A stretch of DNA of 64,000 nucleotides, from positions 714 through 64,713 of the forward strand of contig CANIJN010000002.1 in assembly GCA_947467625.1 (NCBI GenBank), written 5' to 3'. Below are positions 1 to 16,638 of the stretch, piece after piece (position 1 is the stretch's first letter; each line of letters starts with the position of its first letter). The stretch comes from Opitutia bacterium. GTDB taxonomy: Bacteria; Verrucomicrobiota; Verrucomicrobiia; Opitutales; Opitutaceae. Under the pieces are notes generated by a model. It worked only from the letters and a program-made list of their open reading frames with translations, had not been told where the DNA came from and searched no databases. The position numbers and the translations under genes were made by a program.

Positions 1-797
1 ACGAGGGTCGGATTACCCCAGAGAATTTCCCAGCCCATCAGTTTGTAGAAAAGATAAATTGCCATCAGCAAAAACGAGCCGCCGGCGATGGTGAAACCGA
101 ACATCGTGCTGAGCGTGAGGGCGTAGGTGGAGAAGCAAAAGATGCCGTTGAAGCCGATGCGCAGGGAGCCGAAGAAACGGTTGTAGTTGGTCTCGCCGGA
201 AAAACGCGCCGGACGGTCGAACGGAATAATGGCCTGTTTGAAACCGACGACGGCGACCATGCCGCGCAGGAAGCCGTGACTCTCTTTGAGCTTCACGACC
301 TCGGCGACGACGCGACGGGCCATGAGGCGGAAATCGCCGGTGTTGGGCGGGATTTTTACATCGGCGATTTTGTTGATCACCTTGTAGCCCGTGGCGGCGA
401 CGAGTTTTTTGATCCACGGTTCGCCGGTGCGGGCGCGGCGTTGCGGGAGGACGACGTCGTAGCCCTCGCGCCATTTAGCGAGCATTTCGTGAATGAGCTC
501 GGGCGGATCCTGGAGATCGACGTCCATGGCGACGACGGCGTCGCCGGAGGAGTATTCGAGGCCGGCGAGGGTGGCCATGGGTTGACCGAAGCGGCGGGAG
601 AAGCGGAGGAGTTTGATGCGCGGATCACTCGCGCGGTACTCCAAAATGACGTCTTCCGTGCGGTCGGGCGAAGGGTCGAGCGAGAAAATGATTTCGTAGT
701 CCTCCGTGACGGCGGAGAGAATCGGACGGAGGCGCCGGAGGAATTCCGGGATATTTTTTTCCTCCTTATAAACGGGGACGACGATGCTGAGGAGCAT
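1..797 (-). CDS. GT2 polyprenol-phosphate glycosyltransferase (ArnC/GtrB/DPM1-like); C-terminus runs off the window
   Basis: Absent from the ORF track because it is open-ended. My translation of the minus strand from ATG at 797..795 gives MLLSIVVPVYKEEKNIPEFLRRL...YEIIFSLDPSPDRTEDV...VAMDVDLQDPPELIHEML...GDFRLMARRVV..., then a hydrophobic tail (TMFGFTIAGGSFLLMAIYLFYKL). This is collinear with the ArnC/GtrB pattern (VIPVYNE ... DADLQNPPE ... C-terminal TM helices). Confidence 0.85.
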   Translation of the reverse strand, partial: MLLSIVVPVYKEEKNIPEFLRRLRPILSAVTEDYEIIFSLDPSPDRTEDVILEYRASDPRIKLLRFSRRFGQPMATLAGLEYSSGDAVVAMDVDLQDPPELIHEMLAKWREGYDVVLPQRRARTGEPWIKKLVAATGYKVINKIADVKIPPNTGDFRLMARRVVAEVVKLKESHGFLRGMVAVVGFKQAIIPFDRPARFSGETNYNRFFGSLRIGFNGIFCFSTYALTLSTMFGFTIAGGSFLLMAIYLFYKLMGWEILWGNPTL

Positions 798-909: not shown

Positions 910-3774
910 CTACCAGCGGATGCCGAGGGCAAGGAGACGAGCAACGAGCGCGCCGCGGAAGCGGGTGCGGCGCGCGTAGGCATCAATCGTCGTCCAGTCG
1001 TCCTGGCGCGGGCCGTGGAAGCGCGTGCGAATCCGCGCCATCTCTTCGGCGCCGACGGTGTGGATGGCCTGGGAGGTTTTTTGCTCGGAGTGTACGCGGA
1101 AGGCACCGAGGAAATACGGGACACGCACCAGTTTGCAGCCGGCTTGTTGAAAGCGGGCGAGGAGATCCCAATCGAGGGCGAATTGGAAACTGGGGTCGAT
1201 GCCGCCGGCGAGATCCCAGGCGCGTTTGCGCCAGAAGAGGGTTTCTTGCGGGACGTAGTCGATCCACTCGAGGACGTGAGGATCGTGGCGCGGCATGATC
1301 CAGCGGCCGACGTCGCCGTCGTTTTCATCGATGATAATGCGGTGGCCGTAGATCACATCCACCTCGGGGTGAGCGGCGAAATATTCGGCGACGTAGCGGA
1401 GCACGCCGGGGCCGATGAGGTCGTCCGAGTTGAGCCAAGCCATGACATCATCAGGGCCGAGCTCGGGGGTGAGGCGGGCGAAACCGCGGCGGATGGCATC
1501 GGCTTGGCCGGCGTCGCGGGCAGATTCCCAAGCGTGCAAGCGGGCGGCTTGGCGGGCGATGATGGCGGGACTCTGGTCTTTTGAGCCACCGTCCTGCACG
1601 ACGTAAAGGAGGTGTGGATACTGTTGATCGAGGATGCTCAGCATCGTCCGCTCGAGATATTTTTCCTGTCCGTAGCTGGGCGTGACGAGGGCGATCTGGG
1701 GGAGCGATCGGGTCGGGAGGCCGGCGGCTGGGGACTGGGCTGCTAGGCGTGGGGCGGGAAGGCGGTCCCAGACGAGCGGTTTGGGCGCGTGGTGGCGCAG
1801 GATGCCGATCTGCATCCAGTATTTCTCGACGACGCGGGTGAAGAGCCAGGCCTCGCAGGGCCGCCACCACTGTGCGCGCGCGTGGGCGGTGGCGGCCAGC
1901 CAGAGCTTGCGCAGGAGGGCAGTGGAGTCGGTGGAGTCGGCGGCGAGTTGCTGGATGACGGTTTCGCGCTCGGCGCAAGCGCGGTTCAGCACTTGAAGAA
2001 CGGCTTCCTTTTCCGCGAGGAGACGGCCGAAGCGTTTGGCTTGTTCGAGTGAACCGTGGCCGGCGGCGTAATTTTCGAGCGACTGGTCGCGCTCGGCGAG
2101 CAGGGCCTTCAGGGCGACGATCTCGCGGTCGCGGAGAATGACGAGGGCCTCGATGTTGCGGATGTGGACGGCGCGGTCCGCGAGGGCCTGGGTGGCGAGC
2201 GCGATATCGGGGGGGAGGAGCGTCAGCGTGGCTTTGAACTGCGTCTGGTCAGCGAGGGCGGAGGCGTGGCGGGCGGTGAGGTCAGCGAGCGTGTGCTCGA
2301 GCTGTTTGCTGTGCGCGTGCTGTTGAAAAATGAGGCGCTCGCGTTCGTCGCAGACGGATTTGAGGGCGATGATTTCGGCGTCCTTCGCGTGAATTTCGCG
2401 TTCTTTGGAATCGATTTCGCGTTCTTTGGAATCGATCTCGCGCTCCTTCTCGGCGATCGAGAGTTCCTTTTCGAGAATGGCGACGTCCTTTTCGCGGTCG
2501 AAGGCGGTGAGCGCTTCGAGTTTGTGCTGGCGTGCGAGATGTTCGGTGCGAAGGGAACGGTAACGTGAGGACGACGCGGCGATGAGTTCGCGGGTGGAGG
2601 CCGGGAGGCGTTCGATCTGACGCACGGCGAAAGGCGCGTCGGGGTACGCGAGGGTGTCGTCGAGCGCGGTGATGGCATCCGCGATCGTGATACCGCTGAG
2701 GCAAGGCGCAGCGGCGTCGCCGAAGGCGCAATCCCAGCCGCAACCGAAGCACGGGAGCGGCTGCACCAAAACGAGGCCGCGGCGGGCGGTCGGCGTGAAG
2801 CGCGGCCAGGTGCCGCCGCCGAAAAAGGCGACGACGGGGATGTCGAGGGCGGCGGCGAGGTGCATGGCGCCGGTATCGTTGCCGAGGAAAAGCGCTGAGT
2901 CGGCGATGAGTGCGGCGAGGGTCGGGAGCGAGTCCTCACGGCCGAGCCAGAGAGCAGGTGCGACGAGTGCTGCGGTGGACGTGCAGCTCGTGGCGGCGAG
3001 GAACTCGAGGTGAGTGCGCTCGTGCTCGTGGCCGACGAGCAGCGTGGGGAGGCCGTGGCGTTCCTGCGCATGGCGGAGGGTGGCGGCGAACCGGTCGGCG
3101 GGCCACGTTTTCAGCGTGACGTTGGCGAAGCCGGCGGCGGCACAGAGGACATACCGACCGGGCGCGAGGCCCTGCGCGGACAGCAACGCGCGGGCGGTGG
3201 CCCGGGCGGCGCTGGGCAGCGTGAAGGTTGCGGGCACCGGGATCGCCGGGCGGCCCAGCAACGCGGAGGCGAGGCGAAGGTTGCGCTGCGCATCGGGCTC
3301 GTCGGTGGGGACGGCGACTTGCTCGGGGAACACCTGAGTGGCGTCGAGTTGCAGCTGGACGCGGAGCTGGGTGGAGAAAAATTCATCGTTGGCATCGGCC
3401 CCGAGGGCGACGTGCCGCGCGGCAGGGGCGACGGCGGCGAGGGCGACCTCGAGCCAGTTCCGACGCGAGGTGGCGGCGGCCACGAGGTCGGGGTGTAGAG
3501 ACTCCACGAGGCGGCGGAGCCGGGTGAGTTCGACGTCGTCGGCTGCGGGGCCTTGGGCGAAAGGGTCGAACGTGGTGGGAAAAAACTCGATCCCGGGAGC
3601 GAGCAACGCAGCGAGATCGACGTAAGGCCGGCGGATGAGGACACACAGACGCGTGGCCGGCCAAGCGGCCCGCAACGCTCCCAGCGCGGGCGCGAATAGG
3701 ACGAGGTCGCCGAGGGTGTCGAGCTTGAGGAGGAGGGCGACTGCGGGAGCGACGTGGGGGGCGGGCGCGGTCAT
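910..3774 (-). CDS. Three-module glycosyltransferase: N-terminal GT9 (heptosyltransferase-type), ~230-aa coiled coil, C-terminal GT2
   Basis: ORF track, 954 aa. The N-terminus (LLLKLDTLGDLVLFAPALGALRAAWP ... LGNDTGAMHLAAALDIPVVAFFGGG) matches the GT9 signature. Residues ~395-625 are heptad-rich in E/K/L/A, including EKEREIDSKEREIDSKEREIHAKDAEI. Residues ~690-954 (IALVTPSYGQEKYLERTMLSILDQQYP ... WLNSDDLI) match GT2. The start overlaps the upstream gene's stop (ATGA at 3771-3774). Confidence 0.8.
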   Translation of the reverse strand: MTAPAPHVAPAVALLLKLDTLGDLVLFAPALGALRAAWPATRLCVLIRRPYVDLAALLAPGIEFFPTTFDPFAQGPAADDVELTRLRRLVESLHPDLVAAATSRRNWLEVALAAVAPAARHVALGADANDEFFSTQLRVQLQLDATQVFPEQVAVPTDEPDAQRNLRLASALLGRPAIPVPATFTLPSAARATARALLSAQGLAPGRYVLCAAAGFANVTLKTWPADRFAATLRHAQERHGLPTLLVGHEHERTHLEFLAATSCTSTAALVAPALWLGREDSLPTLAALIADSALFLGNDTGAMHLAAALDIPVVAFFGGGTWPRFTPTARRGLVLVQPLPCFGCGWDCAFGDAAAPCLSGITIADAITALDDTLAYPDAPFAVRQIERLPASTRELIAASSSRYRSLRTEHLARQHKLEALTAFDREKDVAILEKELSIAEKEREIDSKEREIDSKEREIHAKDAEIIALKSVCDERERLIFQQHAHSKQLEHTLADLTARHASALADQTQFKATLTLLPPDIALATQALADRAVHIRNIEALVILRDREIVALKALLAERDQSLENYAAGHGSLEQAKRFGRLLAEKEAVLQVLNRACAERETVIQQLAADSTDSTALLRKLWLAATAHARAQWWRPCEAWLFTRVVEKYWMQIGILRHHAPKPLVWDRLPAPRLAAQSPAAGLPTRSLPQIALVTPSYGQEKYLERTMLSILDQQYPHLLYVVQDGGSKDQSPAIIARQAARLHAWESARDAGQADAIRRGFARLTPELGPDDVMAWLNSDDLIGPGVLRYVAEYFAAHPEVDVIYGHRIIIDENDGDVGRWIMPRHDPHVLEWIDYVPQETLFWRKRAWDLAGGIDPSFQFALDWDLLARFQQAGCKLVRVPYFLGAFRVHSEQKTSQAIHTVGAEEMARIRTRFHGPRQDDWTTIDAYARRTRFRGALVARLLALGIRW
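2387..2449 (-). repeat. Three imperfect in-frame copies of a 21-bp unit inside the coiled-coil region
   Basis: The plus strand reads (cgt)gaatttcgcgttctttg / gaatcgatttcgcgttctttg / gaatcgatctcgcgctccttc. On the coding strand this encodes KEREI(D/H)(S/A) heptads. Confidence 0.85.
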
Positions 3775-6700
3775 GGCACGGGCGCGAGATCGACCTGCAG
3801 CAGTCGCGCCGAGCGGCGGCGGGTGTCTGGGGCCGGCAGAGGGAAATCCGCCGGAGCGTCGAAGCGGAGCATCTGCGGTGTCACCGAAGCGGGGATACGG
3901 ATGATCACGGTGGCGTAGGCCCCCGCCGCGAGCGTGTGGCTCGTGAAGACGGGGACGGGGGCGACGGGCCCATCGGCGCTGGAGACGAGTTGCGAGCGCA
4001 GGACGGTGGTGGGCGCGCCCGACCAGTCGGGGATTTCGAACCGCAACGTGACGTCGTGGGCGAGCGTGTTGGCGGGGAGGTGAAGGGTGGCTTCGCGGGC
4101 CATCCAGCCGTCTTGGTCGATGCCTTGAGCGGCGAGTCGCAGGGCACCGGCGGTGGCGAAGTCGAAGGTGCGGCTGGGGAGGGTCGGGAGAATTTCGAGA
4201 AGCGCGAGTTTGGCGCCCACGGGTCGGTCATCCTCATCGGGGAGGGGGGCTGTCGCGGAGGGACGGAGGGAAATCCGCGTGGGGCCGGAGACGGTGGCAA
4301 CGGGCAGGAGCCAATCGAAGGTGCCGGTGGCGGCGGGGAGTTCGAAAGCGCGACCGTTGACGTTGACCTGCAGCGTGCCGCGGCCGAGGGGCTGGCCGGG
4401 GAGTTCGGGGACGTAGCCGCGCAAGCGGAGACTGGAACCGGCGGGCGCGGCGCCGAGAATGAATTCGCTCTGCGGGGAGAGCCAGCCGTCTTCGAAGATA
4501 CCGGAGAATTCGAGGCCGCGGGCGTGGACGAGGTCGGCGGGGAAATTTCTGAGCCGCGTGGGGCGCGCGAGCGCGGCGACTTCGGCGGGGGAGAGTGCGG
4601 AGATGTCGCGGCCGTAGGCGACGAGCAGACGCGAGTCGAGGGGGATGCGGGTGTTGTAGAGCGACTGGAGGCCGCGGCGTTTGTAGGGGAACTGGACGGG
4701 CGTCTCGGCGAGGTCGAGGGCGATGTAGGCGGCGCCGTCCTGCCAGATCGGGCGGAGCGGGCCGATGATGCGGTTGACGGCGCCGTGACCGACGAAACCG
4801 AGGGGGACGTCTTTTTGGGCGAGAATGCGCGGGCCCTCAGTGGCGGCGAGTACGCGTGAGCGCTCGGGCGTCCACGAAGTGTGTTTGCTGCCCATGAACG
4901 ATTTGGAGAGTGCGACGCGGAGGTAGATTTCCTCGCTGGGTTGTTCGACGCGGATCAGCAAAAAGCGCCCCAGTCCGGTGATGTCCTGTTGGCCGGTGTG
5001 GGGGTCCGCCTCTTGTTGATACATACCGATGCGGTGGCGGTCGCCGAGGTAGTAATGGTTGCCGCGCCCGGAGTGGACGAAGACGAGGTGGTTGGCCGCG
5101 GCGGGCGAGGCGGCGGGGACGGCCTTGAAGTAAACGGTGGGCTTGGCCGTGGGGTCGGGCAGGCGGAATTTATTAAAGAGACCGAGCTGCTCGCTGAGGA
5201 GAAGGTAAGCGTCGTGGGGGTCGCGCTTCGCGAAGTTCAGCGCGGGCGCGCGAAATTCGGTGTTAAAGAGCCTGGGCGTGAGCATCGAATCCGCGTCACG
5301 CTGCGCGAGGATAGCGCGGGTGCGGACGAGATCCTGGAACTGGGGATGCAGGCTGACGAGTTGGTCGCCGAGCCGCTCGAACTCGATCGGGGCGATCTGC
5401 TGGAAGTAATCGCGGGCCAGAAAACGCAGGTCGGTGCCGCGAAATTCGACGGCGGCGAGTTTGGCGGCGACGAGGTTGCTGATGTCGCTCAACAGCCGCG
5501 TCTGGGGCGCGACGGCAGGTGCCGACGCGCCGAGAATGGAGGCGAGTTTGGCCTCGGTGAAGCCGCCGCCTTTCTCGCCCTGCGAGACTTGGGTATAGTA
5601 AAGGGCGCTCGGTGCACACAGCACCGCGAGCAGGAGCACGGCGGCGGGCGCCGTCCAGCGGGCGCGGGGTAGAGCGAGACACGCGCAGGCCAGGGCGGCG
5701 GCGAGTGCGGGCTGCATGAACATCGCGGTCTTGTAGAGACCGAAGTCATTGCCGCCGGTGTAGAGTTTCACGCACATCGCGAGGAGTACGATGAGCAGCG
5801 CGGTCATCGGTGCCGGGGTGGCTCGGAGCAGCGTTTCGCGGCAGGAAACGACGATGGCGGTGACGAGACAGATGAACCCACCGAGAATGGCGAGGGAGGT
5901 AAACGGCTCGGCGAACGTGACGGCGAGCGGCATGAACCCAAAGAGGTTGGCCAGGCCGGTCGGAATGAGGAAATACGGAAACAGCGAGAGCGAGAGATCG
6001 ACGGTGCGGAAACCGGAGCCAAATTGATAGGAGATCGTGAAGAGATAGGAGAGGACGTTGTGGCGGAGGAGGACGAGGACGCCGACGATGCCATACATTA
6101 CGAGTCCGAGGCGCGCGGTGGGGAAAGCCCGCGTACGCACCCACTCGATGGCCCCGACCAGCAAGGTGGTTAAGACCGCAAAGGCGGTGACCTCGGGGTA
6201 AAAAACGGCGAAGGCGGCTCCGACGATCGAGAGGACCGCGATATGTGGGACCAGCCGGCGGCGGGTCGCGGGGAGGCGGGCCGTGAGCAGCGCGGTCGCG
6301 GTCAGCAGCAGGGCGACGCCACCGACCTGCGCGATGAGTTGGTAGAGCATGCCCAACATGAACAGCGGGCTGACGGCGAGGAGCGCGGCACCCAGCAAGG
6401 CGTGACGACGCCAGCGGCCGCGATGTAGCGTGAGGCCGGCGGCGGCAAACAGTTGCACGAGCCCAAAGCCCATGATCACGGGCATGAAGATACCCAGAGT
6501 CCTGATACCGGTCAGCGCGCTGATCCACGCGAGCACATGTTCGCTGCCGAAACGCATCAGGCCGGGCACGTGCATGAACCAATAATATTGCGACCAGTCG
6601 CGACCGGCTAGTTCCTCACTCGTCGGGACGCGCCAGAAGCCAAAATCTTTGAAGCGCTCGGCGGCGAAGCAGTAATTAACAAAGTCGTCGTTGACGTAGC

Positions 6701-7052
6701 TCAGCCAATTGAAACCGAAACGCAGTGCGGGCCAGCCGGTCCAGAGCAGCACAAACGCAGCCAGCGCGAAAAACGGCGCGAGGGCGCGGGCCGGGAAGAC
6801 GGGACGGCGCCACAGGAAAATGCCGAGGGAGCCCAGCGCGAGTCCCCACGTCATCGGCCCAGCGAAGGCGCGGACGGGGAGTCCGGCTTGGTTCAACACC
6901 ATAATAGTGAGCACGGCGGTCGCGAGGCCCGTGGCGGGCGCGAGGAGCCACGAACGCAAAATGCCGCCGCGCCAAGAGCACAGCGCCAGCGTCGCCCGAC
7001 CCAGCACGGTCAGGAAGAGGAAAAAACCGAAGGAAACTGCGAGAGCTGACAT
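3771..7052 (-). CDS. Large polytopic membrane protein with a ~590-aa C-terminal soluble domain; putative GT-C-fold glycosyltransferase
   Basis: ORF track, 1093 aa. The N-terminal ~500 aa has a dozen or more hydrophobic helices. The first extracytoplasmic loop carries SYVNDDFVNY, an acidic DD motif as in GT-C enzymes. The long C-terminal non-membrane domain recalls the EmbC/AftA layout. The CDS is confident; the function is inference. Confidence 0.65.
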   Translation of the reverse strand: MSALAVSFGFFLFLTVLGRATLALCSWRGGILRSWLLAPATGLATAVLTIMVLNQAGLPVRAFAGPMTWGLALGSLGIFLWRRPVFPARALAPFFALAAFVLLWTGWPALRFGFNWLSYVNDDFVNYCFAAERFKDFGFWRVPTSEELAGRDWSQYYWFMHVPGLMRFGSEHVLAWISALTGIRTLGIFMPVIMGFGLVQLFAAAGLTLHRGRWRRHALLGAALLAVSPLFMLGMLYQLIAQVGGVALLLTATALLTARLPATRRRLVPHIAVLSIVGAAFAVFYPEVTAFAVLTTLLVGAIEWVRTRAFPTARLGLVMYGIVGVLVLLRHNVLSYLFTISYQFGSGFRTVDLSLSLFPYFLIPTGLANLFGFMPLAVTFAEPFTSLAILGGFICLVTAIVVSCRETLLRATPAPMTALLIVLLAMCVKLYTGGNDFGLYKTAMFMQPALAAALACACLALPRARWTAPAAVLLLAVLCAPSALYYTQVSQGEKGGGFTEAKLASILGASAPAVAPQTRLLSDISNLVAAKLAAVEFRGTDLRFLARDYFQQIAPIEFERLGDQLVSLHPQFQDLVRTRAILAQRDADSMLTPRLFNTEFRAPALNFAKRDPHDAYLLLSEQLGLFNKFRLPDPTAKPTVYFKAVPAASPAAANHLVFVHSGRGNHYYLGDRHRIGMYQQEADPHTGQQDITGLGRFLLIRVEQPSEEIYLRVALSKSFMGSKHTSWTPERSRVLAATEGPRILAQKDVPLGFVGHGAVNRIIGPLRPIWQDGAAYIALDLAETPVQFPYKRRGLQSLYNTRIPLDSRLLVAYGRDISALSPAEVAALARPTRLRNFPADLVHARGLEFSGIFEDGWLSPQSEFILGAAPAGSSLRLRGYVPELPGQPLGRGTLQVNVNGRAFELPAATGTFDWLLPVATVSGPTRISLRPSATAPLPDEDDRPVGAKLALLEILPTLPSRTFDFATAGALRLAAQGIDQDGWMAREATLHLPANTLAHDVTLRFEIPDWSGAPTTVLRSQLVSSADGPVAPVPVFTSHTLAAGAYATVIIRIPASVTPQMLRFDAPADFPLPAPDTRRRSARLLQVDLAPVP

Positions 7053-8211: not shown

Positions 8212-9861
8212 CTAAAATGCGAGCACGACTTTCACGTGCCCGCGGGAATGCGTCGGCGAGGCGTAGGCGAGATGCGTGATTTGCCAGCCGTAGTCCGCAC
8301 TTACGTTCAGATTGACCGGTAGGCTCAGGCGCACGCCTACGCCGGTGCTCGCGAGCGGGGTGAAGATCATGTCATTGAGGTCGCGGTGCCGGTAAAAAAC
8401 CTGGGCGGCATCGTAAAAAAAGACGAAGCGGGTCTCGGTCGCCGCGCGGCCCTTAGGTAAAAACGGCAGGGTATGGCGTATCGTCGGCGTGGTGACATCG
8501 TTGCTGAAGACGAACCCTTGATCGCCCGAGTTGATGCGCTCGTCGAAGCCGCGCACGGTCGAAGAACCGCCGATGGAGAGTTGCTCGCTGCCCGGGACAT
8601 TGGCCGTGGAGAGTTTCGCGAAGGCACGGGAAAAGAACGTCCAGCCACGATCCAGATTGAGGAGCCTTTGGACGGACAGGGTGCCCGTCGCATAAGTCGC
8701 GCGCGTGTTGTACCGTGAGATGGAAAAAACCTTGTCGGTGTTGCGGGAGTTCACGTTACCGGGGCTGAGATCGAGGCCGAGACCGAACAGCCACGCGCCG
8801 CGTGAATCCCGGCGCACCATGGAAAATGAGTTCGTCAACTGAAACGTGTCAGTCGTGTTGCTGGTCAGGGTCGTGCCGCCGTAAGCAAGGTTATTGTTCC
8901 CCTGCTTAAAATCGATCCCCGTGGAGAATTCGATGGGGCTCTCGCCATCGCGGATGGGGAGATTGTAGCGCAGGTTGGCCAGCACGTTTTGCCCCTTCTG
9001 AGTGAAGACACCCCCGGCTCCGAAGGTCGGCTTCACCTTGAGGTAGCCGCCGCTAAATTGGAGATGATGGCGCCAAGGAAGCGGGATCCGATAATCCAGC
9101 GAGTGACTTTGAAAGACGGCCTGATGGTCGGTGGTAGTATATTGGTAAGTCCCTTGGTGATCTCGGCCCCACAGGTTTCCAAACTGCAGCGCTCCCGTAT
9201 AGTGTCGGGTGCCTAAAACCTGATTGCCCGAATCGTCGTAGGATGCCGTGAAGCGCACCGGAATCCGCTCGGCGACGCCCACGATGAGATCCGCCTTGCC
9301 GGGTTGATTCGGCAGATCGTTGATGAGCACCTGGACCTGCCGAAAGGGATTGGTGTTGGCCCATTTGACCGCGTCATCCAACGTCGAGAGCCGGACCTCG
9401 TCGCCGGTTTTGATGCCCAGTTTCTCCTGCAAGAGTTTACTGCTAAACCAACGATTACCCTTGAACTGAAACTCGTTGTAGCGTCCGACCACGACCGCCA
9501 AACGGAAAATCCCGGTCGAAATATCCTGATTGGGCGGGATGACCTTCACGATCAACCGATCATTCTCGCGCGCGTGTTGGGCAATCGTGTTGGCCAACGT
9601 ATTCAAGAGTTCGTTCGTAATCGGCTTACCGATAAACGCGGCCATTTTCCCCTGGAAAGCTGCCCCAGCCAGCACCGCCACATCCTGCACGAAGACCGCA
9701 CTGTCACCACCGCTGTCCGCCGGCAGCGCGGCCGCTTTCACATCGGTATCGGCGATGATGAGCTTCTTCAGCATGAAAACGAGGGGGGCACTCGGCTCGG
9801 CGGCAAACGAAAGGGCCGACGAGGCAAGGCAGACCAGCGCAAAAATGAAACGAGTCAGCAT
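8212..9861 (-). CDS. TpsB outer-membrane transporter (ShlB/FhaC/HecB family hemolysin secretion/activation protein)
   Basis: The ORF track gives 8212..10053. I prefer the start at M65 (ATG 9861), which yields a classical signal peptide, MLTRFIFALVCLASSALSFA|AEP. This is followed by a POTRA-like region (FQFKGNRWFSSKLLQEKLGIKTGDEVRLSTLDDAVKWANTNPF) and a beta-barrel ending in aromatic ...VKVVLAF. The gene is divergent from a TpsA gene. Confidence 0.85.
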   Translation of the reverse strand: MLTRFIFALVCLASSALSFAAEPSAPLVFMLKKLIIADTDVKAAALPADSGGDSAVFVQDVAVLAGAAFQGKMAAFIGKPITNELLNTLANTIAQHARENDRLIVKVIPPNQDISTGIFRLAVVVGRYNEFQFKGNRWFSSKLLQEKLGIKTGDEVRLSTLDDAVKWANTNPFRQVQVLINDLPNQPGKADLIVGVAERIPVRFTASYDDSGNQVLGTRHYTGALQFGNLWGRDHQGTYQYTTTDHQAVFQSHSLDYRIPLPWRHHLQFSGGYLKVKPTFGAGGVFTQKGQNVLANLRYNLPIRDGESPIEFSTGIDFKQGNNNLAYGGTTLTSNTTDTFQLTNSFSMVRRDSRGAWLFGLGLDLSPGNVNSRNTDKVFSISRYNTRATYATGTLSVQRLLNLDRGWTFFSRAFAKLSTANVPGSEQLSIGGSSTVRGFDERINSGDQGFVFSNDVTTPTIRHTLPFLPKGRAATETRFVFFYDAAQVFYRHRDLNDMIFTPLASTGVGVRLSLPVNLNVSADYGWQITHLAYASPTHSRGHVKVVLAF

Positions 9862-10631: not shown

Positions 10632-10647
10632 TGGCACGCGCCCTGCA
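10632..10647 (+). promoter_or_regulatory. Candidate sigma-54 (-24/-12) promoter upstream of tpsA
   Basis: TGGCACGcgccCTGCA compared with the consensus TGGCACG-N4-TTGCW. GG is at 10633-34 and GC at 10645-46, which is the correct 12-nt register. It lies ~200 nt upstream of the tpsA ATG. rpoN is encoded in this window. It is the only good match I found among the TGGCAC occurrences. Confidence 0.4.
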
Positions 10648-10845: not shown

Positions 10846-13800
10846 ATGAACAAAAAACTGAATCCCAACTTCTCTCTGAAGAAGTTACTATTGTCCGCCC
10901 TCGTTGCTGGACCGCTGGCTATTTTGCCCGCTCCACTCTGGGCGTTGCCAAGCACAGCTGCTACCAACCTCACCACCTCATCGACTTCGATCACGTATTC
11001 GGGCGTGCTTGATGGTGTCGCTGCGGGCGCGCTGAATATCACGGCTCCGGATAAATCCATCCTCACGTGGCAGTCTTTTAACATCAACCAAGCGGACACG
11101 ATCAATTACCTGCTCCCGTCCACCACCGCTTCGGTGCTGAACAATGTGGCAGGTGGTGCCGCTTCCACCATCGCTGGCGCGATCAATTCGAACGGTAACG
11201 TTTATGTGTTGAATCCGGCCGGTATCGTCATTTCTCAAACGGCTCAGATCATCACCGGCGGCTTTTACGCCAGCACGGTTGCTGAACCCAGCTCGTTCTT
11301 CACCACCACTGGAACCCTGAATTTCACGGGTAGCGCCACGACGGACGTCGTCGTTCAGTCCGACGGTCAGGTTACCGCGGGCCAGATCGCCTCCATCCAA
11401 GCACTCGGCACCGGTAACAAGATTACCCTCGCCGGTCGCAGCGTCCTCGTCGAAGGTGCGAATCTCTTCGGTAATGTGACGTTGCAGTCTGCTGCCACCG
11501 GTAAGGTCAATCTGGCTCAGACCAGCGACACGGTTGGCCGCCCTCAAGCGGGTGGAGCAGTTAATATCAGTCAGGCCGCCGGCTCTGGCGGCAATCTGAC
11601 GATTGTCAGCAACGGCGGGACGGTCTCCCTGACGGGTGCACCGGTCGCAGTCAGCAATAACTCAGATACTGCTGCTGGTCCGGCCGTCAGCGTCAATGCG
11701 ACGGGTGGACTTGTCGTCGGCGCGGGCGGTCTCGGTGGTAGCGGCTATGCCCCTAGCTCCAATATCGCTCTGTCGATCACGGCACCGCTGATCCGTCAAA
11801 GTCTCAACTCGACGACCACCGCTTCGACCTCGGTCGGAACCACGGCTGTTGGTTTCGCAACCACTAATGCGCAGGGACAAATCACGGGCTACTCGCTCAC
11901 CACCAATGGAGCTCCTTCGATCGGCAGTGGCTACATTTCCAACGTCACCAGCAGCGTGATTGGAAACAATGTCACGATCACGGTGCCTCAGGTCGGCTTC
12001 GCCACCAATGTGGCCGGCGCGCTCAGCGTTAATACCACCGGATCAACCTCCAATGGTCCTGTTACGCAAGGTGCTGGACTCTCGACCAGTCGTTTGACCG
12101 TTACCGGTGCAGCGACGATCACCACCGCGACCACCGCGACCACCGCCGCCGCCGCTGACGTGACCTTGGGCAACGCAGCTCTATCCACGCTCAATCTGCC
12201 TCTCGTCGGAACCGTCAACGTGATCGAAGCCGATGGCTTTGCCCTCGGCAACGCGAAGGTTCTCCCAAATGCGGCCAACGCTGTCACCCTGCGCGCACAA
12301 GCTGGAAATATTTCCATGAGCGGCACGTCCAAGGTTGAAATCGTTCCTTCTGTCCTTGTTCCTGCTCCGAATACCCTGCTCACCGCTAACACGGGTGGCG
12401 TCACCTATAGCAATATCGGAGATCTGAAGATCACGACCTTGAGCACCACGACGTCCTCATCTGGCGTCACGGCCCTTACCTCGACGGGAAATGTCACGAT
12501 TCCAGCCTTCTCGTCTCCCTCGCTCACCATCACCACGACCGGTGGTACGATCACCACGGGTAATCTGACGACGACCTCTGGGGCCGCCAATCAGGTGTCC
12601 GCGACGCTGACCGCCAATGGCAATATCTCGGTCGGTACCGTTAACACTTCGGGTAAAATCGTCATCAACTCCACCGGTGGCACGATCACCCTCGGTCAAG
12701 CTGCCAATGGTTTCATGACCACCGGCGCAGGTCTCGACCTTAAGGCTGTGGGCGACATCACCATGACCAATGCCACGGCTCTCGTTACCTCCGGCACAGA
12801 TGCGAAGATCGCGTCCACGACCGGTAACGTTACGCTCACGGGCGGCTTCGCTGGCGGCGGTGCGATCACTGCGGCTAATAACATCACCATCGGCGCCCCT
12901 GGCACCGGTAAACCAAGCGTGAATGCGAATACCGCTTTGGACACGTCCTCGATTCTCTCGAAGGTCACCGGCGGCACCACTAGCAATCCTGCTGGTCTTT
13001 ACGCTCCCAATAGCCAAGTCCCGATGGCGGTGACGACGACTGGTACTGCCCCGGGCACCACGGCCACCGGATATTTCACGACCAATGCGTCGGGTCAAAT
13101 TAGCGGCACGGTTATCACCGAGGTCGGAGCCGGATACACGTTTACTAACTCAGGAACCACTGTTACTAACCCGAATGTGACCTTCACCGCCAACGCAGCC
13201 CCCACCAACTCGGTGGTTGCGAATACGGCGCTCACCCTCACCGCCACCGCTGGTACCGTCGCTGTCGCGAGCCCGATCGTGGGAACCGGCGCGGTTACTA
13301 TCGTATCCGGAGGGGCCCTTACGGTTCCCTCTATCACGGCCCCGAACGTCTCCTTGGAATCCACGACAGGATCCATCGCGCAGACTGCCGCGACCGCAAT
13401 CACCGCTTCTGGGAACACGACGCTCAAAGCAGCCACGAGCGTCTCGTTGGATCTCGCCGGCAACGACTTCAATAATGTTGTCCTCACTTCGAGTCCGTCA
13501 GGCGTGACCCTCAAGGACGCCAATGCGCTCACCTTGGCCAATGGCACTAATGCGGCCGGCAATGTGACCATCACCTCTGGTGCTGGCCTGACCGGTTTTA
13601 CGAACCAGAACATCCCCGTTCCATCTCCGAATGTCGCCGTGACCTTCGGAGCTGCTAGCGTCTCCGCCGGCTCGGTTACTTCCGTGGCTCTGACTACGAC
13701 GGGCACCGGCTATGCGGCAAATGCGACGATCCCAGTGACCTTTTCGGCACCTCCAGCGCAATCGGCTGCAGGACTTGTGATCGCCAGCTCGGCGAGCACC

Positions 13801-16638
13801 GGTCAGAGCAACAATGGCTTTGTACTCGGCGCTGTCGGCTCCACTGCTGCTGGTCTTCAAGCTGTGATCTTGCCTACTCCGATCGGCAACGGTTTCGTGA
13901 GTGGATCTGAAGTCCCTCTGACCGTGACCATGGCGGGCGGATTTGCTGGCGTTGCGCCGACTGTCGTCGGTGTTGCTAACAGCAACGGCCAAATCGCTTC
14001 CGTAAAAGTCACCAGCCCCGGATCAGGGGTGACCACCGGCTCGCTGACGAACATCACCACCACCGCTATTGCGCCGATCGCGAGCGCCACAGCGACGGGT
14101 AATATCGTCACGAATGCTGCGGGACAGGTTACCGGGTTGACGGTGACCGACGGTGGCTCCGGCTACCTCGGCTCCTTTGTACCTCGGGTCACTCCCCCAG
14201 CTGCCCCCACCGCGGGAGCTGCTGCCATCATCACGCCTGTCCTCGCGGCCGGTGCTATTACGTCTGCCACGTCCACGGCTGGTGCAGGGTTTATTACGGC
14301 TCCGGTCATTGCCGCGACGGCGACCGCTCCAGCCTTCACGACCACGATCGTGAACGGTGCCATCGCGACCGTTACCCCGATCGCTACGGGTGGCGTAGCT
14401 CTGGGTTCTGCTTCGACCGACGTCATCAAGGTTGCGGGTAACCTTACGCTCAGTTCCGTTGGACCTGTGGGCACTGCTACCACGGCAGGCTCGACCGTCA
14501 CGGCAAACTACTCCGAACTCACCACGGTTGCTGCTAATGTTGCCGTTGTCGGTAACGTGAGCCTCAACACCTTGGGTGCTAACGCCACCTTCGGTGTTCC
14601 TACCGGTGGTTTCGGTGCGGCCCCAGCGGTCACTGCTGCTGCAGTCGGCGGCGCGATTGGTACCGGTACGTTCACGGTCACCCAGAATAACTCGGTCAAT
14701 CTCGGAGCCACGACGGCAGGCGTCCTGAAGGCTAAGAGCGCCGCTGGTGACATCACCAGCTCCGGCAAGCTCGCGATCGCGGGCGCCTCTGAGTTCACGG
14801 CGAACAGCCTGTTTGCTCCCGGTGTAATCACGCTGAATGATGCGACCAACGTCTTTGGTGGCACGGTTTCCATCATCAACGGTAAGAATGTCTCCGTGGT
14901 CGGCGCGACGACGGTGACGGTTGGTTCGGCTGCCCAGAACGGTGTGGTCTCCGGCTCCATTTCGGTGGAGAACTCCGGTGCGCTGACTCTCAACACTGCT
15001 GGCAACGGCAACCTGAGCGTCGTTAGCTTCAAGGCCGGCGGTGCCGTCGTCATCAATGATGGCACGAACACCGATGGTCTGACCCTCCAAAACATCAGCA
15101 ACACCGGTGCGGGAACGGTGGCAGTCACGGCGGCCGGCCCGATCACGTTGGGTTCTGGCATCCAATTGGCGAGCACGGGCACGACGACGATCACATCGAC
15201 CGGCGCCGCAGCTTCGATTAAGGATTCTGCGCCTGGCATCAGCATCATCAACGCGCTGACGCTCGCTTCGGACAACGATATCGCCATCACCAACACCGGT
15301 CACTCGGTCGGTCGCGTGACGATGACCTCGGGTCTCGGCGGAGCTTCCACCAATGCTAACATCACGTACCAAGAGGGTGGCTCGGCTAATCTGGGTGCCG
15401 TCACGATCACTGCAAATGCCACGAATCCTGGTTCCTTGTCCGTGACGAGCACGGGTGGCAGCATCTTCCAAGGTGCGGGCACGATCACGGTGCCAACCAT
15501 CGCAGGTGGCACCAACACGGTCTCGTTCAGCGCTCCTAATGGTAGCGTCACACTGGATCTCGCTGGTAATACCATTGCTCCAGCCGTCGCTCTGACGGCA
15601 TCGGGCAACTCGACGGTTCGCCAGTCTACAGCTCAGAACCTGACTTTGGGTAATGTAGCAGTCACTGCGGGGACCTTCCTCGCTACGGTGAATACCGCGG
15701 CCATTGAGCTCGCTCAAGCTGCTGGCACTTCGGTCCGCGTCTTTGGTGATACCACGCTGAACACCGGCGGTAAGATTACCCTCGATAACGTGGGTAACAA
15801 CTTCGGCGGATTGACGATCGCTTCGAACGTCGGATCGGCCGTCGGCGCCGCGGTGGTATTGCGCGAGGGTGGCACGATCAACCTCAAGGCAGTCGACACC
15901 GGCACGGGTGGTTTGACGTTTACCAGCACGCTGAAGTTAACCTCTGAGGGAGGATCAATCGTCTCGAGCCCAACGGCTCTGCAGGCCAAGATCATTAAGG
16001 TCGGTGGTTCAACGACTCTGGTCTCGGCGGCTGATGTCACTCTGAACACCACGGATGTTGCCAACAACTTCGGTGGCCAGAGCATCACGGTCACGGCCCC
16101 AGGCACTGTCTCGATCCAAGACAACAATGCTACTACGGTCATCGCCGGTGGTTCCACGATCGGTGGCACGCTGACGATCAAGAATGACAATGCGGCCGGC
16201 ACCATCAAGGACAGCCCCGGTGCGTTGACGGTAAACGGCAATGTCTTCCTCCAGACGAGCGCGACGGGTAGCATCAACATCGGGGCTTCGACGGCCACGT
16301 TGGGTGCGATTCAGTTCCGCTCCGGTGGCGTGAGCATCGCTGAGGCGACCACGTTGAATCTGGCTGCGGGCAGCACCAGCGCAGCGAACTCGGTGGTCCA
16401 ACTGAGCAGCAACGGTGACATCGTGACGAGTGGCTTGGGTGGCGGTAGCTTCGGTGGCACGCTCTCCTTGAACGCCAATGGTAGCATCACGGTTTCGAAC
16501 CCCATCTTTGTCGCGCAAGGTCTGACCTTCCGTGCCTTGGGTGCGGTCAACCTGAGCGCGCTGAGCCAGACCGGCAATTTGTCCGGTCTCGCCCCGACTA
16601 ACCTCGGAGCCGCCAGCTACGTTGCTCCTTCCCCGTAA
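10846..16638 (+). CDS. TpsA exoprotein: filamentous-hemagglutinin N-terminal (TPS) domain protein, giant beta-helical adhesin-like
   Basis: 1930 aa. Signal peptide: MNKKLNPNFSLKKLLLSALVAGPLAILPAPLWALPS. The TPS domain motif ILTWQSFNINQADTINYLLPSTTASVLNNVAGGAASTIAGAINSNGNVYVLNPAGIVIS corresponds to the LNRV...NPNGI pattern. The remainder is T/S/A/G/N/V-rich repeats typical of a beta-helix. By eye there are no Cys and one His. Confidence 0.9.
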   Translation: MNKKLNPNFSLKKLLLSALVAGPLAILPAPLWALPSTAATNLTTSSTSITYSGVLDGVAAGALNITAPDKSILTWQSFNINQADTINYLLPSTTASVLNNVAGGAASTIAGAINSNGNVYVLNPAGIVISQTAQIITGGFYASTVAEPSSFFTTTGTLNFTGSATTDVVVQSDGQVTAGQIASIQALGTGNKITLAGRSVLVEGANLFGNVTLQSAATGKVNLAQTSDTVGRPQAGGAVNISQAAGSGGNLTIVSNGGTVSLTGAPVAVSNNSDTAAGPAVSVNATGGLVVGAGGLGGSGYAPSSNIALSITAPLIRQSLNSTTTASTSVGTTAVGFATTNAQGQITGYSLTTNGAPSIGSGYISNVTSSVIGNNVTITVPQVGFATNVAGALSVNTTGSTSNGPVTQGAGLSTSRLTVTGAATITTATTATTAAAADVTLGNAALSTLNLPLVGTVNVIEADGFALGNAKVLPNAANAVTLRAQAGNISMSGTSKVEIVPSVLVPAPNTLLTANTGGVTYSNIGDLKITTLSTTTSSSGVTALTSTGNVTIPAFSSPSLTITTTGGTITTGNLTTTSGAANQVSATLTANGNISVGTVNTSGKIVINSTGGTITLGQAANGFMTTGAGLDLKAVGDITMTNATALVTSGTDAKIASTTGNVTLTGGFAGGGAITAANNITIGAPGTGKPSVNANTALDTSSILSKVTGGTTSNPAGLYAPNSQVPMAVTTTGTAPGTTATGYFTTNASGQISGTVITEVGAGYTFTNSGTTVTNPNVTFTANAAPTNSVVANTALTLTATAGTVAVASPIVGTGAVTIVSGGALTVPSITAPNVSLESTTGSIAQTAATAITASGNTTLKAATSVSLDLAGNDFNNVVLTSSPSGVTLKDANALTLANGTNAAGNVTITSGAGLTGFTNQNIPVPSPNVAVTFGAASVSAGSVTSVALTTTGTGYAANATIPVTFSAPPAQSAAGLVIASSASTGQSNNGFVLGAVGSTAAGLQAVILPTPIGNGFVSGSEVPLTVTMAGGFAGVAPTVVGVANSNGQIASVKVTSPGSGVTTGSLTNITTTAIAPIASATATGNIVTNAAGQVTGLTVTDGGSGYLGSFVPRVTPPAAPTAGAAAIITPVLAAGAITSATSTAGAGFITAPVIAATATAPAFTTTIVNGAIATVTPIATGGVALGSASTDVIKVAGNLTLSSVGPVGTATTAGSTVTANYSELTTVAANVAVVGNVSLNTLGANATFGVPTGGFGAAPAVTAAAVGGAIGTGTFTVTQNNSVNLGATTAGVLKAKSAAGDITSSGKLAIAGASEFTANSLFAPGVITLNDATNVFGGTVSIINGKNVSVVGATTVTVGSAAQNGVVSGSISVENSGALTLNTAGNGNLSVVSFKAGGAVVINDGTNTDGLTLQNISNTGAGTVAVTAAGPITLGSGIQLASTGTTTITSTGAAASIKDSAPGISIINALTLASDNDIAITNTGHSVGRVTMTSGLGGASTNANITYQEGGSANLGAVTITANATNPGSLSVTSTGGSIFQGAGTITVPTIAGGTNTVSFSAPNGSVTLDLAGNTIAPAVALTASGNSTVRQSTAQNLTLGNVAVTAGTFLATVNTAAIELAQAAGTSVRVFGDTTLNTGGKITLDNVGNNFGGLTIASNVGSAVGAAVVLREGGTINLKAVDTGTGGLTFTSTLKLTSEGGSIVSSPTALQAKIIKVGGSTTLVSAADVTLNTTDVANNFGGQSITVTAPGTVSIQDNNATTVIAGGSTIGGTLTIKNDNAAGTIKDSPGALTVNGNVFLQTSATGSINIGASTATLGAIQFRSGGVSIAEATTLNLAAGSTSAANSVVQLSSNGDIVTSGLGGGSFGGTLSLNANGSITVSNPIFVAQGLTFRALGAVNLSALSQTGNLSGLAPTNLGAASYVAPSP

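What the first reader, a model, noticed from the sequence alone, without database searches (positions are those of the whole stretch)
1..16638. TPS secretion pair whose tpsB gene heads a glycosyltransferase gene string: candidate dedicated glycosylation system for a giant exoprotein
What the sequence shows:
- tpsB (8212-9861, minus strand) is followed on the same strand by four glycan genes with short junctions. These are a pyruvyl-transferase-like gene (25-nt gap), a 1093-aa GT-C-like membrane protein (21-nt gap), a GT9-coiled-coil-GT2 fusion (ATGA overlap), and an ArnC/DPM1-like polyprenol-P GT2 (112-nt gap).
- The whole string diverges from tpsA.
- TpsA is 1930 aa with no Cys. It is dominated by T/S/A/G/N/V and carries roughly forty N-x-S/T sequons by eye (NLT, NIT, NFT, NVT, NIS, NAT, and others).

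Established precedents:
- The TpsA adhesin HMW1A is glycosylated by HMW1C.
- The autotransporters AIDA-I and TibA are heptosylated by the GT9-related enzymes Aah and TibC.
- hldD, which makes ADP-heptose, is present in this window.

Inference: I know of no described TPS locus with GT9, GT-C and pyruvyl-transferase genes apparently operonic with the TpsB transporter. The string also contains both a lipid-linked sugar donor synthase (GT2) and GT-C candidates that could use that donor outside the cytoplasm.
Basis: partly seen in the sequence, partly recalled or inferred. Interest (0 to 1): 0.8.

Follow-up and report, generated by a model that had tools for sequence, protein, structure and literature searches.

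The report
Secreted fibre genes inside a surface-sugar gene cluster
In freshwater and soil Opitutaceae bacteria, the genes for a giant secreted fibre protein and its outer-membrane exporter sit inside a gene cluster that looks built to make a length-controlled surface polysaccharide, which suggests fibre and sugar coat work together, though nothing yet shows the sugar is attached to the protein.

Summary
Gene coordinates, junctions (25 nt, 21 nt, ATGA overlap, 112 nt) and domain calls are all confirmed, and TpsA/TpsB is a true two-partner secretion pair. The linkage is conserved: 35 of 40 informative related loci keep tpsB directly upstream of the pyruvyltransferase-like gene, with a 7-29 nt junction in 32 of 36 loci measured, down to 33% TpsB identity.

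- The GT9-coiled-coil-GT2 protein, plus a nearby Wzm/Wzt transporter with a Wzt_C glycan-binding module, is the published hallmark of ABC-transporter-dependent, chain-terminated polysaccharide assembly.
- The GT9 domain resembles WaaC/WaaF, not TibC.
- The 1093-aa protein has a GT-C fold with carbohydrate-binding-module-like periplasmic domains.
- The core trio (GT9-CC-GT2, GT-C, GtrB/PgfS-like GT2) also occurs in 15 of 15 informative distant loci without any TPS pair, often directly after wzm-wzt.
- Sequons (48) are not enriched over composition (38.9 ± 5.2).

Best reading: a surface-polysaccharide assembly and periplasmic modification operon into which a TPS pair and a pyruvyltransferase were recruited. 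Covalent TpsA glycosylation remains possible (about 0.3). Two cultured isolates carry the locus and could test it.

The parts
1..797 (-). N-terminal 265 aa of a 310-aa GtrB/ArnC/PgfS-type polyprenol-phosphate glycosyltransferase (GT2 domain plus two C-terminal TM helices). Cut by the window start.
   Evidence: PF00535, 105.9 bits. Full-length copy in L002: NCBIfam PgfS 250 bits and ArnC 148 bits, both below the equivalog cut-offs. TM helices at 229-247 and 265-283. 79-98% identical across 80 loci.
910..3774 (-). GT9 (GT-B) - long helical/coiled-coil spacer - GT2 (GT-A) fusion, 954 aa. Candidate polymerase/terminator with a molecular ruler.
   Evidence: Pfam GT9 at 152-332 and GT2 at 697-827. 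AF2 model: helices 392-650 and C-terminal helices 901-949. Foldseek: GT9 part matches 3tov, WaaF and WaaC; GT2 part matches WrtF and K4CP. Spacer length varies 213-329 aa among 44 orthologues.
3771..7052 (-). 1093-aa GT-C-fold membrane glycosyltransferase (about 490-aa polytopic domain) with a roughly 600-aa periplasmic beta-sandwich, CBM-like region.
   Evidence: AF2 pLDDT 91.4. Foldseek: AftA, PglB, ArnT and STT3 at probability 1.0 for the membrane part; CBM22, malectin-like, BcsB and GH101 for the C-terminal part. D122 and D123 are invariant in 68 homologues. The family has 1395 50%-cluster representatives.
7074..8186 (-). Pyruvyltransferase-like (CsaB/PS_pyruv_trans superfamily) soluble protein, 370 aa, GTG start.
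   Evidence: PF04230 at 23.8 bits against a 25.3 cut-off. TIGR03609 CsaB at E 2e-11, covering 9-320 of the protein and 7-298 of the 301-position model. Found in 43 of the 56 class I loci and in none of the 24 class II loci.
8212..9861 (-). tpsB: Omp85/FhaC-type transporter, 549 aa.
   Evidence: PF03865 94.8 bits, POTRA_2 25.4 bits. Gene callers on identical contigs aa.
8219..8243 (-). Terminator-like hairpin with an interrupted T-run inside the last codons of tpsB. Probably not a functional full terminator.
   Evidence: Scan hit: 9 pairs, tail ATTTTAGTTT. The T-run is kept only in the closest relatives (L008, L010, L012) and is absent in most class I loci, while the short junction is kept.
10632..10647 (+). 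Sigma-54-type -24/-12 promoter candidate (TGGCACGCGCCCTGCA) facing tpsA.
   Evidence: One mismatch to the consensus; only two such hits in 64 kb. The TGGCA and TGCA elements are invariant in 6 relatives.
10846..16638 (+). tpsA: 1930-aa secreted beta-helical exoprotein with an N-terminal TPS domain and DUF5649 repeats. No Cys, 26% S+T.
   Evidence: DUF5649 at 68.5 bits.
16661..16690 (+). Strong intrinsic terminator after tpsA, so tpsA is monocistronic here.
   Evidence: 13-bp stem with 8 GC pairs, followed by TTTTTTGTGTT.
17011..19077 (+). Polytopic membrane protein with a weak PMT_2 (GT-C) match and a C-terminal TPR array, 688 aa. Adjacent to tpsA only in close relatives.
   Evidence: PMT_2 at 19.3 bits, below the 26.1 cut-off; strong TPR hits. 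The TPRs resemble OGT/SPINDLY TPRs. Synteny.
19356..20744 (+). Wzt: ABC-transporter ATPase with a C-terminal glycan-binding Wzt_C module.
   Evidence: PF00005 83.9 bits and PF14524 71.4 bits. The same position next to tpsA is seen in Opitutus sp. ER46.
20737..21591 (-). Wzm: ABC-2 permease.
   Evidence: PF01061 56.7 bits.
24176..26795 (-). Neighbouring glycan genes: a DegT-family aminotransferase and a methyltransferase-GT2 fusion.
   Evidence: PF01041 366.9 bits; Methyltransf plus PF00535.

Best explanation
The minus-strand string is best read as a surface-polysaccharide assembly and modification operon of the ABC-transporter-dependent kind. One Opitutaceae clade has recruited a two-partner secretion pair and a pyruvyltransferase-like gene into it.

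Inferred mechanism:
1. On the cytoplasmic face, the GT9-coiled-coil-GT2 protein polymerises a lipid-linked glycan (GT2 module) and caps it (GT9 module). The helical spacer sets the chain length. The PvT-like enzyme adds a further modification.
2. Wzm/Wzt export the chain, and Wzt's Wzt_C module recognises the cap.
3. In the periplasm, the GtrB/PgfS-like GT2 supplies a polyprenol-phosphate monosaccharide. The 1093-aa GT-C enzyme uses this donor, with its CBM-like periplasmic domains holding a glycan.
4. tpsB is translated from the same transcript and exports TpsA, which is itself driven by a conserved sigma-54-type promoter. Fibre and glycan therefore appear together as one surface structure.

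Shown here: gene content, protein folds and conserved synteny. Inferred: co-transcription, enzyme order, sugar identities, and the final acceptor. Whether the glycan is covalently attached to TpsA is left open.
For: Architecture:
- GT-B domain (1-390), helices 392-650, GT-A domain (690-895).
- The spacer varies 213-329 aa among orthologues, while the GT2 part varies only 274-310 aa.
- Nearest structures are glycan enzymes: WaaF, WaaC, WrtF and K4CP.
- Wzt carries Wzt_C and Wzm is adjacent.
- PMC11231755 states that an extended coiled-coil protein, with the terminator at the distal end and polymerase GT modules on the other, together with a Wzt CBM, is the characteristic marker of this assembly strategy.

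Synteny:
- Class II loci have wzm-wzt-GT9CCGT2-GT-C-GT2 co-directional.
- In Opitutus sp. ER46 (45% GT-C identity) and in the window, the TPS pair sits between wzm/wzt and the string.
- tpsB-PvT coupling: 35 of 40 informative class I loci. The junction is 7-29 nt in 32 of 36 loci measured, at 33-87% TpsB identity. It is also present in the cultured isolates Horticoccus and ER46.

GT-C protein: GT-C fold plus CBM-like domains.
Against: - No initiating phosphoglycosyltransferase, no WaaL/Wzy_C ligase and no outer-membrane polysaccharide exporter was seen in the parts of the window scanned. The fate of the glycan is therefore unknown.
- The coiled coil was modelled as a monomer with modest confidence (pLDDT 45-83 in the spacer).
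- Tight, ancient operonic linkage with tpsB is unusual for a plain O-antigen cluster and argues that TpsA is more than a bystander.
- All enzyme activities are inferred from family or fold.
Confidence: 0.5

Rival explanations
1. Dedicated protein glycosylation. The glycan and/or single sugars from polyprenol-phosphate donors are transferred in the periplasm by the GT-C enzyme(s) onto Ser/Thr (or Asn) of TpsA while it crosses unfolded towards TpsB. This is analogous to S-layer slg clusters or the streptococcal Pgf/GtrB-GT-C systems.
For: - Conserved tpsB-PvT-GT-C operon.
- The PvT-like gene occurs only in class I loci, 36 of the 43 that carry it with tpsB beside it in the fetched flank, and in no class II locus.
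- TpsA is 26% S+T, has no Cys, and is monocistronic next to the cluster. S-layer genes sit next to slg clusters in the same way (PMC2943079).
- The GT2's best family match is PgfS of the S. mutans adhesin-glycosylation operon. PgfS or GtrB plus GT-C enzymes O-glycosylate S/T-rich extracytoplasmic regions (PMC12041528).
- GT-C fold similarity includes PglB and STT3.
Against: - The core trio exists without TPS in class II and in some class I loci.
- The GT-C periplasmic region is CBM-like, and no WWDxG motif is seen in the sequence.
- No Wzy_C-type O-oligosaccharyltransferase was found.
- Sequons are not enriched, and there is only one D/E-x-N-x-S/T.
- The PgfS match is below the equivalog cut-off, and ArnC also matches.
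Confidence: 0.3
2. Adjacency without functional coupling. A TPS+PvT cassette was inserted into an O-antigen-type cluster in an ancestor and has simply been inherited.
For: - The trio functions without TPS elsewhere.
- TPS genes have lower GC (0.56-0.60) than the GT string (0.62-0.69).
- Arrangements vary: class Ib has an extra 870-885-aa TPR protein gene, and PMT-TPR is adjacent only in close relatives.
Against: - A 7-29 nt tpsB-PvT junction is retained while TpsB diverges to 33% identity, which argues for selection on co-expression.
- The same sandwich (wzm/wzt - tpsA - tpsB - string) is seen in the window and in ER46 at 45% GT-C identity.
- The GC difference is explained by amino-acid composition.
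Confidence: 0.15
3. Cytoplasmic heptosylation of TpsA by the GT9 domain before Sec export, as Aah and TibC do for AIDA-I and TibA.
For: - GT9 family hit.
- A Cys cluster, C342-x2-C345-x3-C349...C358, is invariant in 44 orthologues.
- hldD is present in the genome.
Against: - TibC is not detected by sequence at E <= 10 and is not in the Foldseek top 50. WaaF, WaaC and 3tov are the best matches.
- The domain is fused through a long coiled coil to a GT2, as in polysaccharide terminators.
- The same fusion occurs in TPS-less loci.
Confidence: 0.03

Closest known systems
ABC-transporter-dependent, chain-terminated O-polysaccharide assembly (E. coli O9a WbdA/WbdD; Klebsiella O12 WbbB, O4, O7; Wzm/Wzt-CBM)
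   Same: - A multi-module protein with a catalytic domain at the far end of a long coiled coil and a GT module at the other end.
- Wzt with a C-terminal glycan-binding module, and Wzm adjacent.
- wzm-wzt lies directly upstream of the coiled-coil GT in class II loci.
   Different: - The distal module here is a GT9 (heptosyltransferase-like), not a kinase/methyltransferase, GT99 or GT137.
- There is only one polymerase-type GT module.
- No WaaL or initiating enzyme is seen nearby.
- A TPS pair sits inside the cluster, and tpsB heads the operon.
S-layer glycosylation (slg) clusters of Geobacillus/Paenibacillus (WsaE/WsaF, Wzm/Wzt, O-oligosaccharyltransferase WsaB)
   Same: - An O-antigen-like, Wzm/Wzt-exported glycan encoded beside a monocistronic gene for an abundant secreted surface protein (PMC2943079).
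   Different: - slg systems use a Wzy_C-family oligosaccharyltransferase, and none was found here.
- The organism here is diderm, and the protein leaves by type Vb secretion.
- Attachment to the protein is not shown.
GtrB/PgfS + GT-C periplasmic glycosylation (Shigella Gtr, Klebsiella Gml, S. mutans Pgf, streptococcal GtrB/PgtC2, ArnC/ArnT)
   Same: - A GT2 with two C-terminal TM helices whose best match is PgfS or ArnC.
- It is encoded next to GT-C-fold membrane enzymes with an invariant acidic motif in an extracytoplasmic loop.
   Different: - The GT-C here belongs to an uncharacterised, Pfam-less family with a roughly 600-aa CBM-like domain.
- No GtrA-type flippase was seen.
- The acceptor is unknown.
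HMW1ABC / EtpBAC: TPS systems with a third, glycosylating partner (HMW1C-like GT41)
   Same: - A TPS locus with glycosyltransferase gene(s) attached.
- The TpsA TPS domain is most similar to EtpA and HMW1 among solved structures.
   Different: - HMW1C is a cytoplasmic GT41 N-glycosyltransferase that adds hexoses to sequons. No GT41 is present here and sequons are not enriched.
- The enzymes here are of the lipid-linked and periplasmic type.

Membership tests
Two-partner secretion (type Vb) | TpsA with an N-terminal TPS (NPNL/NPNGI-type) secretion domain | tested here: met
   TIGR01901 scores 63.1 bits against a 29.1 cut-off. PDB hits: EtpA 1e-12, HMW1 5e-12, HxuA 1e-11. The ER46 orthologue hits PF05860.
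Two-partner secretion (type Vb) | Cognate Omp85-family TpsB with POTRA domains and a ShlB/FhaC barrel, encoded adjacently | tested here: met
   PF03865 94.8 bits and PF08479 25.4 bits. The genes are divergent with a 984-nt spacer. The pair is conserved in 29 or more loci.
HMW1C-like TPS glycosylation | GT41 HMW1C-type cytoplasmic N-glycosyltransferase in the locus, and a sequon-rich substrate | tested here: not met
   No such domain was found in any locus protein. Sequons: 48 against 38.9 ± 5.2 expected.
Autotransporter heptosyltransferases (Aah/TibC, BAHT) | Specific similarity of the GT9-like domain to TibC/Aah rather than to LPS heptosyltransferases | tested here: not met
   phmmer against the PDB at E <= 10 finds WaaF and 3tov only. 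The Foldseek top 50 contains 3tov, WaaF and WaaC but no TibC.
ABC-transporter-dependent terminated glycan assembly (WbdD/WbbB type) | Extended coiled-coil protein separating a distal catalytic module from GT module(s) | tested here: met
   AF2 model: helices 392-650 between the GT-B and GT-A domains. Spacer length is variable. SMC and coiled-coil family hits. The criterion is taken from PMC11231755.
ABC-transporter-dependent terminated glycan assembly (WbdD/WbbB type) | Wzm/Wzt transporter with a CBM on Wzt, encoded in the cluster | tested here: met
   PF14524 Wzt_C 71.4 bits. Wzm PF01061. wzm-wzt is adjacent in class II loci and in ER46.
ABC-transporter-dependent terminated glycan assembly (WbdD/WbbB type) | Chain-terminating activity of the distal module, and ligation of the product to lipid A-core | not testable with these tools
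   This needs biochemistry. No WaaL/Wzy_C was found among the window genes scanned.
GT-C glycosyltransferases | GT-C membrane fold with a conserved acidic motif in an extracytoplasmic loop | tested here: met
   Foldseek matches AftA, PglB, ArnT and STT3 at probability 1.0, TM-score (target) 0.39-0.48. D122 and D123 are invariant.
STT3/PglB oligosaccharyltransferases | WWDxG motif in the periplasmic domain; Pfam STT3 | tested here: not met
   No Pfam hit. No WWD is present in the translated sequence. The periplasmic part matches CBM-like folds.
Polyprenol-phosphate glycosyltransferases (GtrB/ArnC/DPM1/PgfS) | GT2 catalytic domain followed by two C-terminal TM helices | tested here: met
   PF00535 105.9 bits. 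PgfS 250 bits and ArnC 148 bits over the full length, both below the equivalog cut-offs, so only family-level membership is established. TM helices confirmed.
Polysaccharide pyruvyltransferases (PF04230/CsaB) | Score above the family threshold | tested here: inconclusive
   23.8 bits against 25.3. CsaB at 43.7 bits against 213. No PDB sequence hit. The ER46 orthologue has a weak PF04230 hit.
S-layer-type slg protein glycosylation | Wzy_C-family O-oligosaccharyltransferase in the cluster | tested here: not met
   No PF04932 hit in any protein scanned.

The most novel reading that the evidence does not exclude
TpsA is covalently glycosylated in the periplasm, while in transit to TpsB, by Pfam-less GT-C enzymes using lipid-linked donors. 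The glycan would include a ruler-measured, Wzm/Wzt-exported, pyruvylated polymer. This would be the first lipid-linked, GT-C-dependent glycosylation route dedicated to a type Vb substrate, and a Gram-negative counterpart of S-layer slg glycosylation that uses a new kind of oligosaccharyltransferase.
Probability: 0.3. Interest if true: 0.8.

Novelty: new variant of a known kind. Interest (0 to 1): 0.55.

Why it matters
The only TPS glycosylation found in the literature searched here is cytoplasmic, by HMW1C-like enzymes. In this locus the TpsB transporter gene is joined by a conserved short junction to genes of a lipid-linked, periplasm-facing glycan pathway, across a whole verrucomicrobial family.

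Possible outcomes:
- If the glycan is attached to TpsA, this reveals a new way to decorate type V secreted proteins and a new class of GT-C oligosaccharyltransferase.
- If the glycan is not attached, the locus still shows a fibre-plus-polysaccharide surface module and a GT9-coiled-coil-GT2 variant of the molecular-ruler polymerases outside Proteobacteria.
- It also gives a first functional context for a family of about 1400 uncharacterised GT-C proteins (counted as 50%-identity cluster representatives).

Tried and rejected
- Terminator between tpsB and PvT. A hairpin plus T-run is predicted at 8243-8219, but it lies in the last tpsB codons. Its T-run is kept only in the closest relatives, while the short junction is kept widely. 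I rejected it as an operon boundary; partial attenuation in this clade cannot be excluded.
- Sequon enrichment: not above composition.
- Aah/TibC analogy: no specific similarity.
- Sequence searches of the 1093-aa and PvT proteins against the PDB: nothing useful.
- The D740 membrane protein downstream of the window compared with the GT-C family profile: no homology. Pfam and NCBIfam are empty for it, so I do not call it GT-C.
- Rfam on the whole window: no hits.
- Conserved RNA structure in the tpsA leader: weak (-6.7 kcal/mol).
- The 147-aa ORF in the tpsB-tpsA spacer: no family hit, and the region is poorly conserved.
- Whether class I and class II co-occur in one genome. However, only the top hits are visible, and a third subfamily of about 940 aa exists in Lacunisphaera. 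Orthology versus paralogy is unresolved.
- The 885-aa TPR protein of class Ib loci is not a homologue of the window's PMT-TPR protein beyond the TPRs.

Full report
**What is there**

The window comes from an Opitutaceae (Verrucomicrobiota) bacterium. Metagenome contigs carrying a PvT-like protein identical to the window's, with the rest of the string 99-100% identical, were found, and all homologues carry Opitutaceae or Opitutus labels.

- GT2 start at 797 (-)
- 954-aa gene at 910-3774 (-)
- 1093-aa gene at 3771-7052 (-)
- 370-aa gene at 7074-8186 (-, GTG start)
- tpsB at 8212-9861 (-)
- tpsA at 10846-16638 (+)

On identical contigs the string continues past the window start. After the full 310-aa GT2 come two further polytopic membrane proteins of 740 and 725 aa. 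These have no family hits.

To the right of tpsA lie:
- a strong terminator at 16661-16690
- a membrane protein with a TPR array and a weak PMT_2 match at 17011-19077
- Wzt with a Wzt_C module at 19356-20744
- Wzm at 20737-21591 (-)
- a DegT aminotransferase and a methyltransferase-GT2 fusion

From about 26.9 kb the genes are an efflux system, then respiratory and other housekeeping genes. hldD is real (375 bits) but lies at 42.9 kb among these.

**Identity of the parts**

TpsB is a ShlB/FhaC protein.

TpsA escaped Pfam's TPS model, but it passes NCBIfam TIGR01901 and matches the TPS domains of EtpA, HMW1 and HxuA.

The small GT2 is a GtrB/ArnC/PgfS-type polyprenol-phosphate glycosyltransferase with two C-terminal TM helices. 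It is 79-98% identical in all 80 related loci, while its neighbours fall to 33-60%.

The PvT-like protein aligns to CsaB over nearly its whole length, but below every curated threshold.

The 1093-aa protein has no sequence-level family. Its model (pLDDT 91.4) shows two parts:
- a GT-C membrane domain matching AftA, PglB, ArnT and STT3
- a roughly 600-aa periplasmic stack of beta-sandwiches matching CBM22, malectin-like domains, BcsB and GH101 accessory domains

An N-D-D-x-x-N-Y motif is conserved in this protein, with D122, D123, N126 and Y127 invariant in 68 homologues. The family is large, with 1395 50%-identity cluster representatives.

The 954-aa protein has four regions:
- a GT9 GT-B domain whose best structural matches are 3tov, WaaF and WaaC
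- about 260 residues of long helices
- a GT2 GT-A domain whose best matches are the WrtF fucosyltransferase and chondroitin polymerase
- C-terminal helices

The helical spacer ranges from 213 to 329 residues among 44 orthologues, whereas the GT2 part varies only from 274 to 310.

**Is the tpsB-GT linkage conserved?**

A scan of 185,579 species-representative genomes with the GT-C family profile gave 80 loci. I mapped all locus proteins onto them by tblastn.

Class I loci have GT-C identity of at least 43%. Forty of them have enough upstream sequence to judge:
- 35 have tpsB-PvT immediately upstream of the GT-C gene. In 29 of these a TpsA N-terminus is also visible in the flank.
- 2 have PvT without tpsB.
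- 3 have neither. One of these sits next to clpP and HDOD genes.

The tpsB stop to PvT start distance is 7-29 nt in 32 of 36 loci measured, at TpsB identities of 33-87%. PvT almost always starts with GTG. The terminator-like hairpin at the end of the window's tpsB is not conserved beyond the closest relatives, so it is not an operon boundary.

Two cultured isolates carry the arrangement:
- Opitutus sp. ER46: wzm, wzt(Wzt_C), tpsA, then tpsB-PvT-GT-C-GT9/GT2-GT2
- Horticoccus sp. 23ND18S-11

In a sub-group (class Ib), a gene for an 870-885-aa protein with a TPR tail precedes tpsB.

**The counter-evidence**

Class II loci have GT-C identity of 33-36%. These proteins are about 1207 aa and form a large, well-conserved family. 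The loci carry GT9-CC-GT2, the GT-C homologue and the same GT2, in the order wzm-wzt-GT9CCGT2-GT-C-GT2. None of the 15 informative class II loci has TpsB, TpsA or PvT.

It shows that the core trio works without a TPS substrate. No assembly appears in both classes among the 80 loci, so they look like lineage alternatives. Visibility is limited, though, and a third subfamily of about 940 aa exists.

**Reinterpretation**

[quoted passage not shown] The protein carries a terminating module at the distal end and polymerase GT modules at the other, and it works together with a CBM on Wzt that recognises the chain cap (PMC11231755). The 954-aa protein plus Wzt/Wzm fit this pattern, and class II gene order makes the connection direct.

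The GtrB-like GT2 plus GT-C pair is the standard periplasmic glycosylation module. The CBM-like periplasmic domains of the GT-C protein suggest a glycan acceptor.

The Aah/TibC analogy fails. TibC is not retrieved by sequence or by fold, while WaaF and WaaC are.

The sequon argument also fails. There are 48 sequons against 38.9 ± 5.2 expected from composition, the reversed motif gives 49, and there is only one D/E-x-N-x-S/T.

**What the TPS pair is doing there**

The conserved short junction between tpsB and PvT, and the conserved position of the TPS pair between wzm/wzt and the string in both the window and ER46, argue for real functional coupling.

Two forms of coupling are possible.
- Covalent. 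The glycan or single sugars are transferred to TpsA in the periplasm. Precedents:
  - S-layer slg clusters, where a Wzm/Wzt-exported glycan is put on a protein whose monocistronic gene is adjacent (PMC2943079).
  - Pgf or GtrB plus GT-C O-glycosylation of S/T-rich regions (PMC12041528).
  - EmaA, whose modification is proposed to depend on O-polysaccharide synthesis and WaaL (abstracts listed).
- Non-covalent. Fibre and pyruvylated glycan are produced together and interact at the surface.

I cannot separate these computationally. No Wzy_C or STT3-type transferase is present, but the Pfam-less GT-C proteins could fill that role.

My probabilities:
- 0.5 for a polysaccharide operon functionally coupled to TPS, with attachment left open
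- 0.3 for dedicated covalent TpsA glycosylation
- 0.15 for inherited adjacency without function
- 0.03 for Aah-like cytoplasmic heptosylation

**Novelty and score**

No paper in the searched library links Opitutaceae with TPS. All TPS-glycosylation papers retrieved by the search on TPS glycosylation concern HMW1C-like enzymes.

Every component belongs to a known kind. The combination is new: tpsB heading an ABC-transporter-type and GT-C glycan operon, with a GT9-coiled-coil-GT2 ruler protein. I rate it a new variant of a known kind, with interest 0.55. It stays above average because the coupling is robust and unexplained, and because two cultured strains make it directly testable.

Noticed in passing
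window 10632-10647 (+); leader 10731-10845: A sigma-54-type promoter (TGGCACGCGCCCTGCA) lies 198 nt upstream of the tpsA ATG. Its -24 TGGCA and -12 TGCA elements are invariant in six relatives whose TpsA is only about 50-85% identical. The proximal 115 nt or so of the leader is strongly conserved in sequence but shows no convincing conserved RNA fold. rpoN itself is at 55130-56653 (-).
   Followed up: partly
window 1-797 (-) and all loci L007-L086: The GtrB/PgfS-like GT2 is 79-98% identical across all 80 loci, while adjacent genes diverge to 33-60%. This is unusually strong purifying selection for a gene in a glycan cluster.
   Followed up: no
L020 4165-6822; L046 4442-7048; L087 4404-7010: In a sub-group of related loci, a gene for an 870-885-aa protein with a C-terminal TPR tail and no other family hit lies upstream of tpsB on the same strand. 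In those genomes tpsB does not head the string.
   Followed up: partly
window 3771-7052 (-) family: The Pfam-less GT-C/CBM family is large: 1395 50%-identity cluster representatives. It includes a roughly 940-aa subfamily lacking the last 130 residues or so (one member is from Lacunisphaera), and a roughly 1207-aa subfamily in TPS-less loci.
   Followed up: partly
window 10846-16638 (+), TpsA residues about 344-1150: Five or six copies of a short motif, with the full form N-x-x-G-Q-(I/V)-(T/S/A)-(G/S)...G-x-G-(Y/F), interrupt the beta-helix-like sequence. They may be small inserted modules.
   Followed up: no
window 910-3774 (-), residues 342-358: A Cys cluster, C342-x2-C345-x3-C349...C358, at the end of the GT9 domain is invariant in 44 orthologues. 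It may be a metal site.
   Followed up: no
window 19356-21591: wzt (+) and wzm (-) are convergent and overlap by 8 nt at their 3' ends, rather than forming the usual wzm-wzt operon. The same convergent layout is seen in Opitutus sp. ER46 (L088).
   Followed up: no
window 8219-8243 (-): A hairpin plus an interrupted T-run lies inside the last codons of tpsB. It is kept in the closest relatives (L008, L010, L012) and could act as a partial attenuator that sets the ratio of TpsB to GT proteins.
   Followed up: partly
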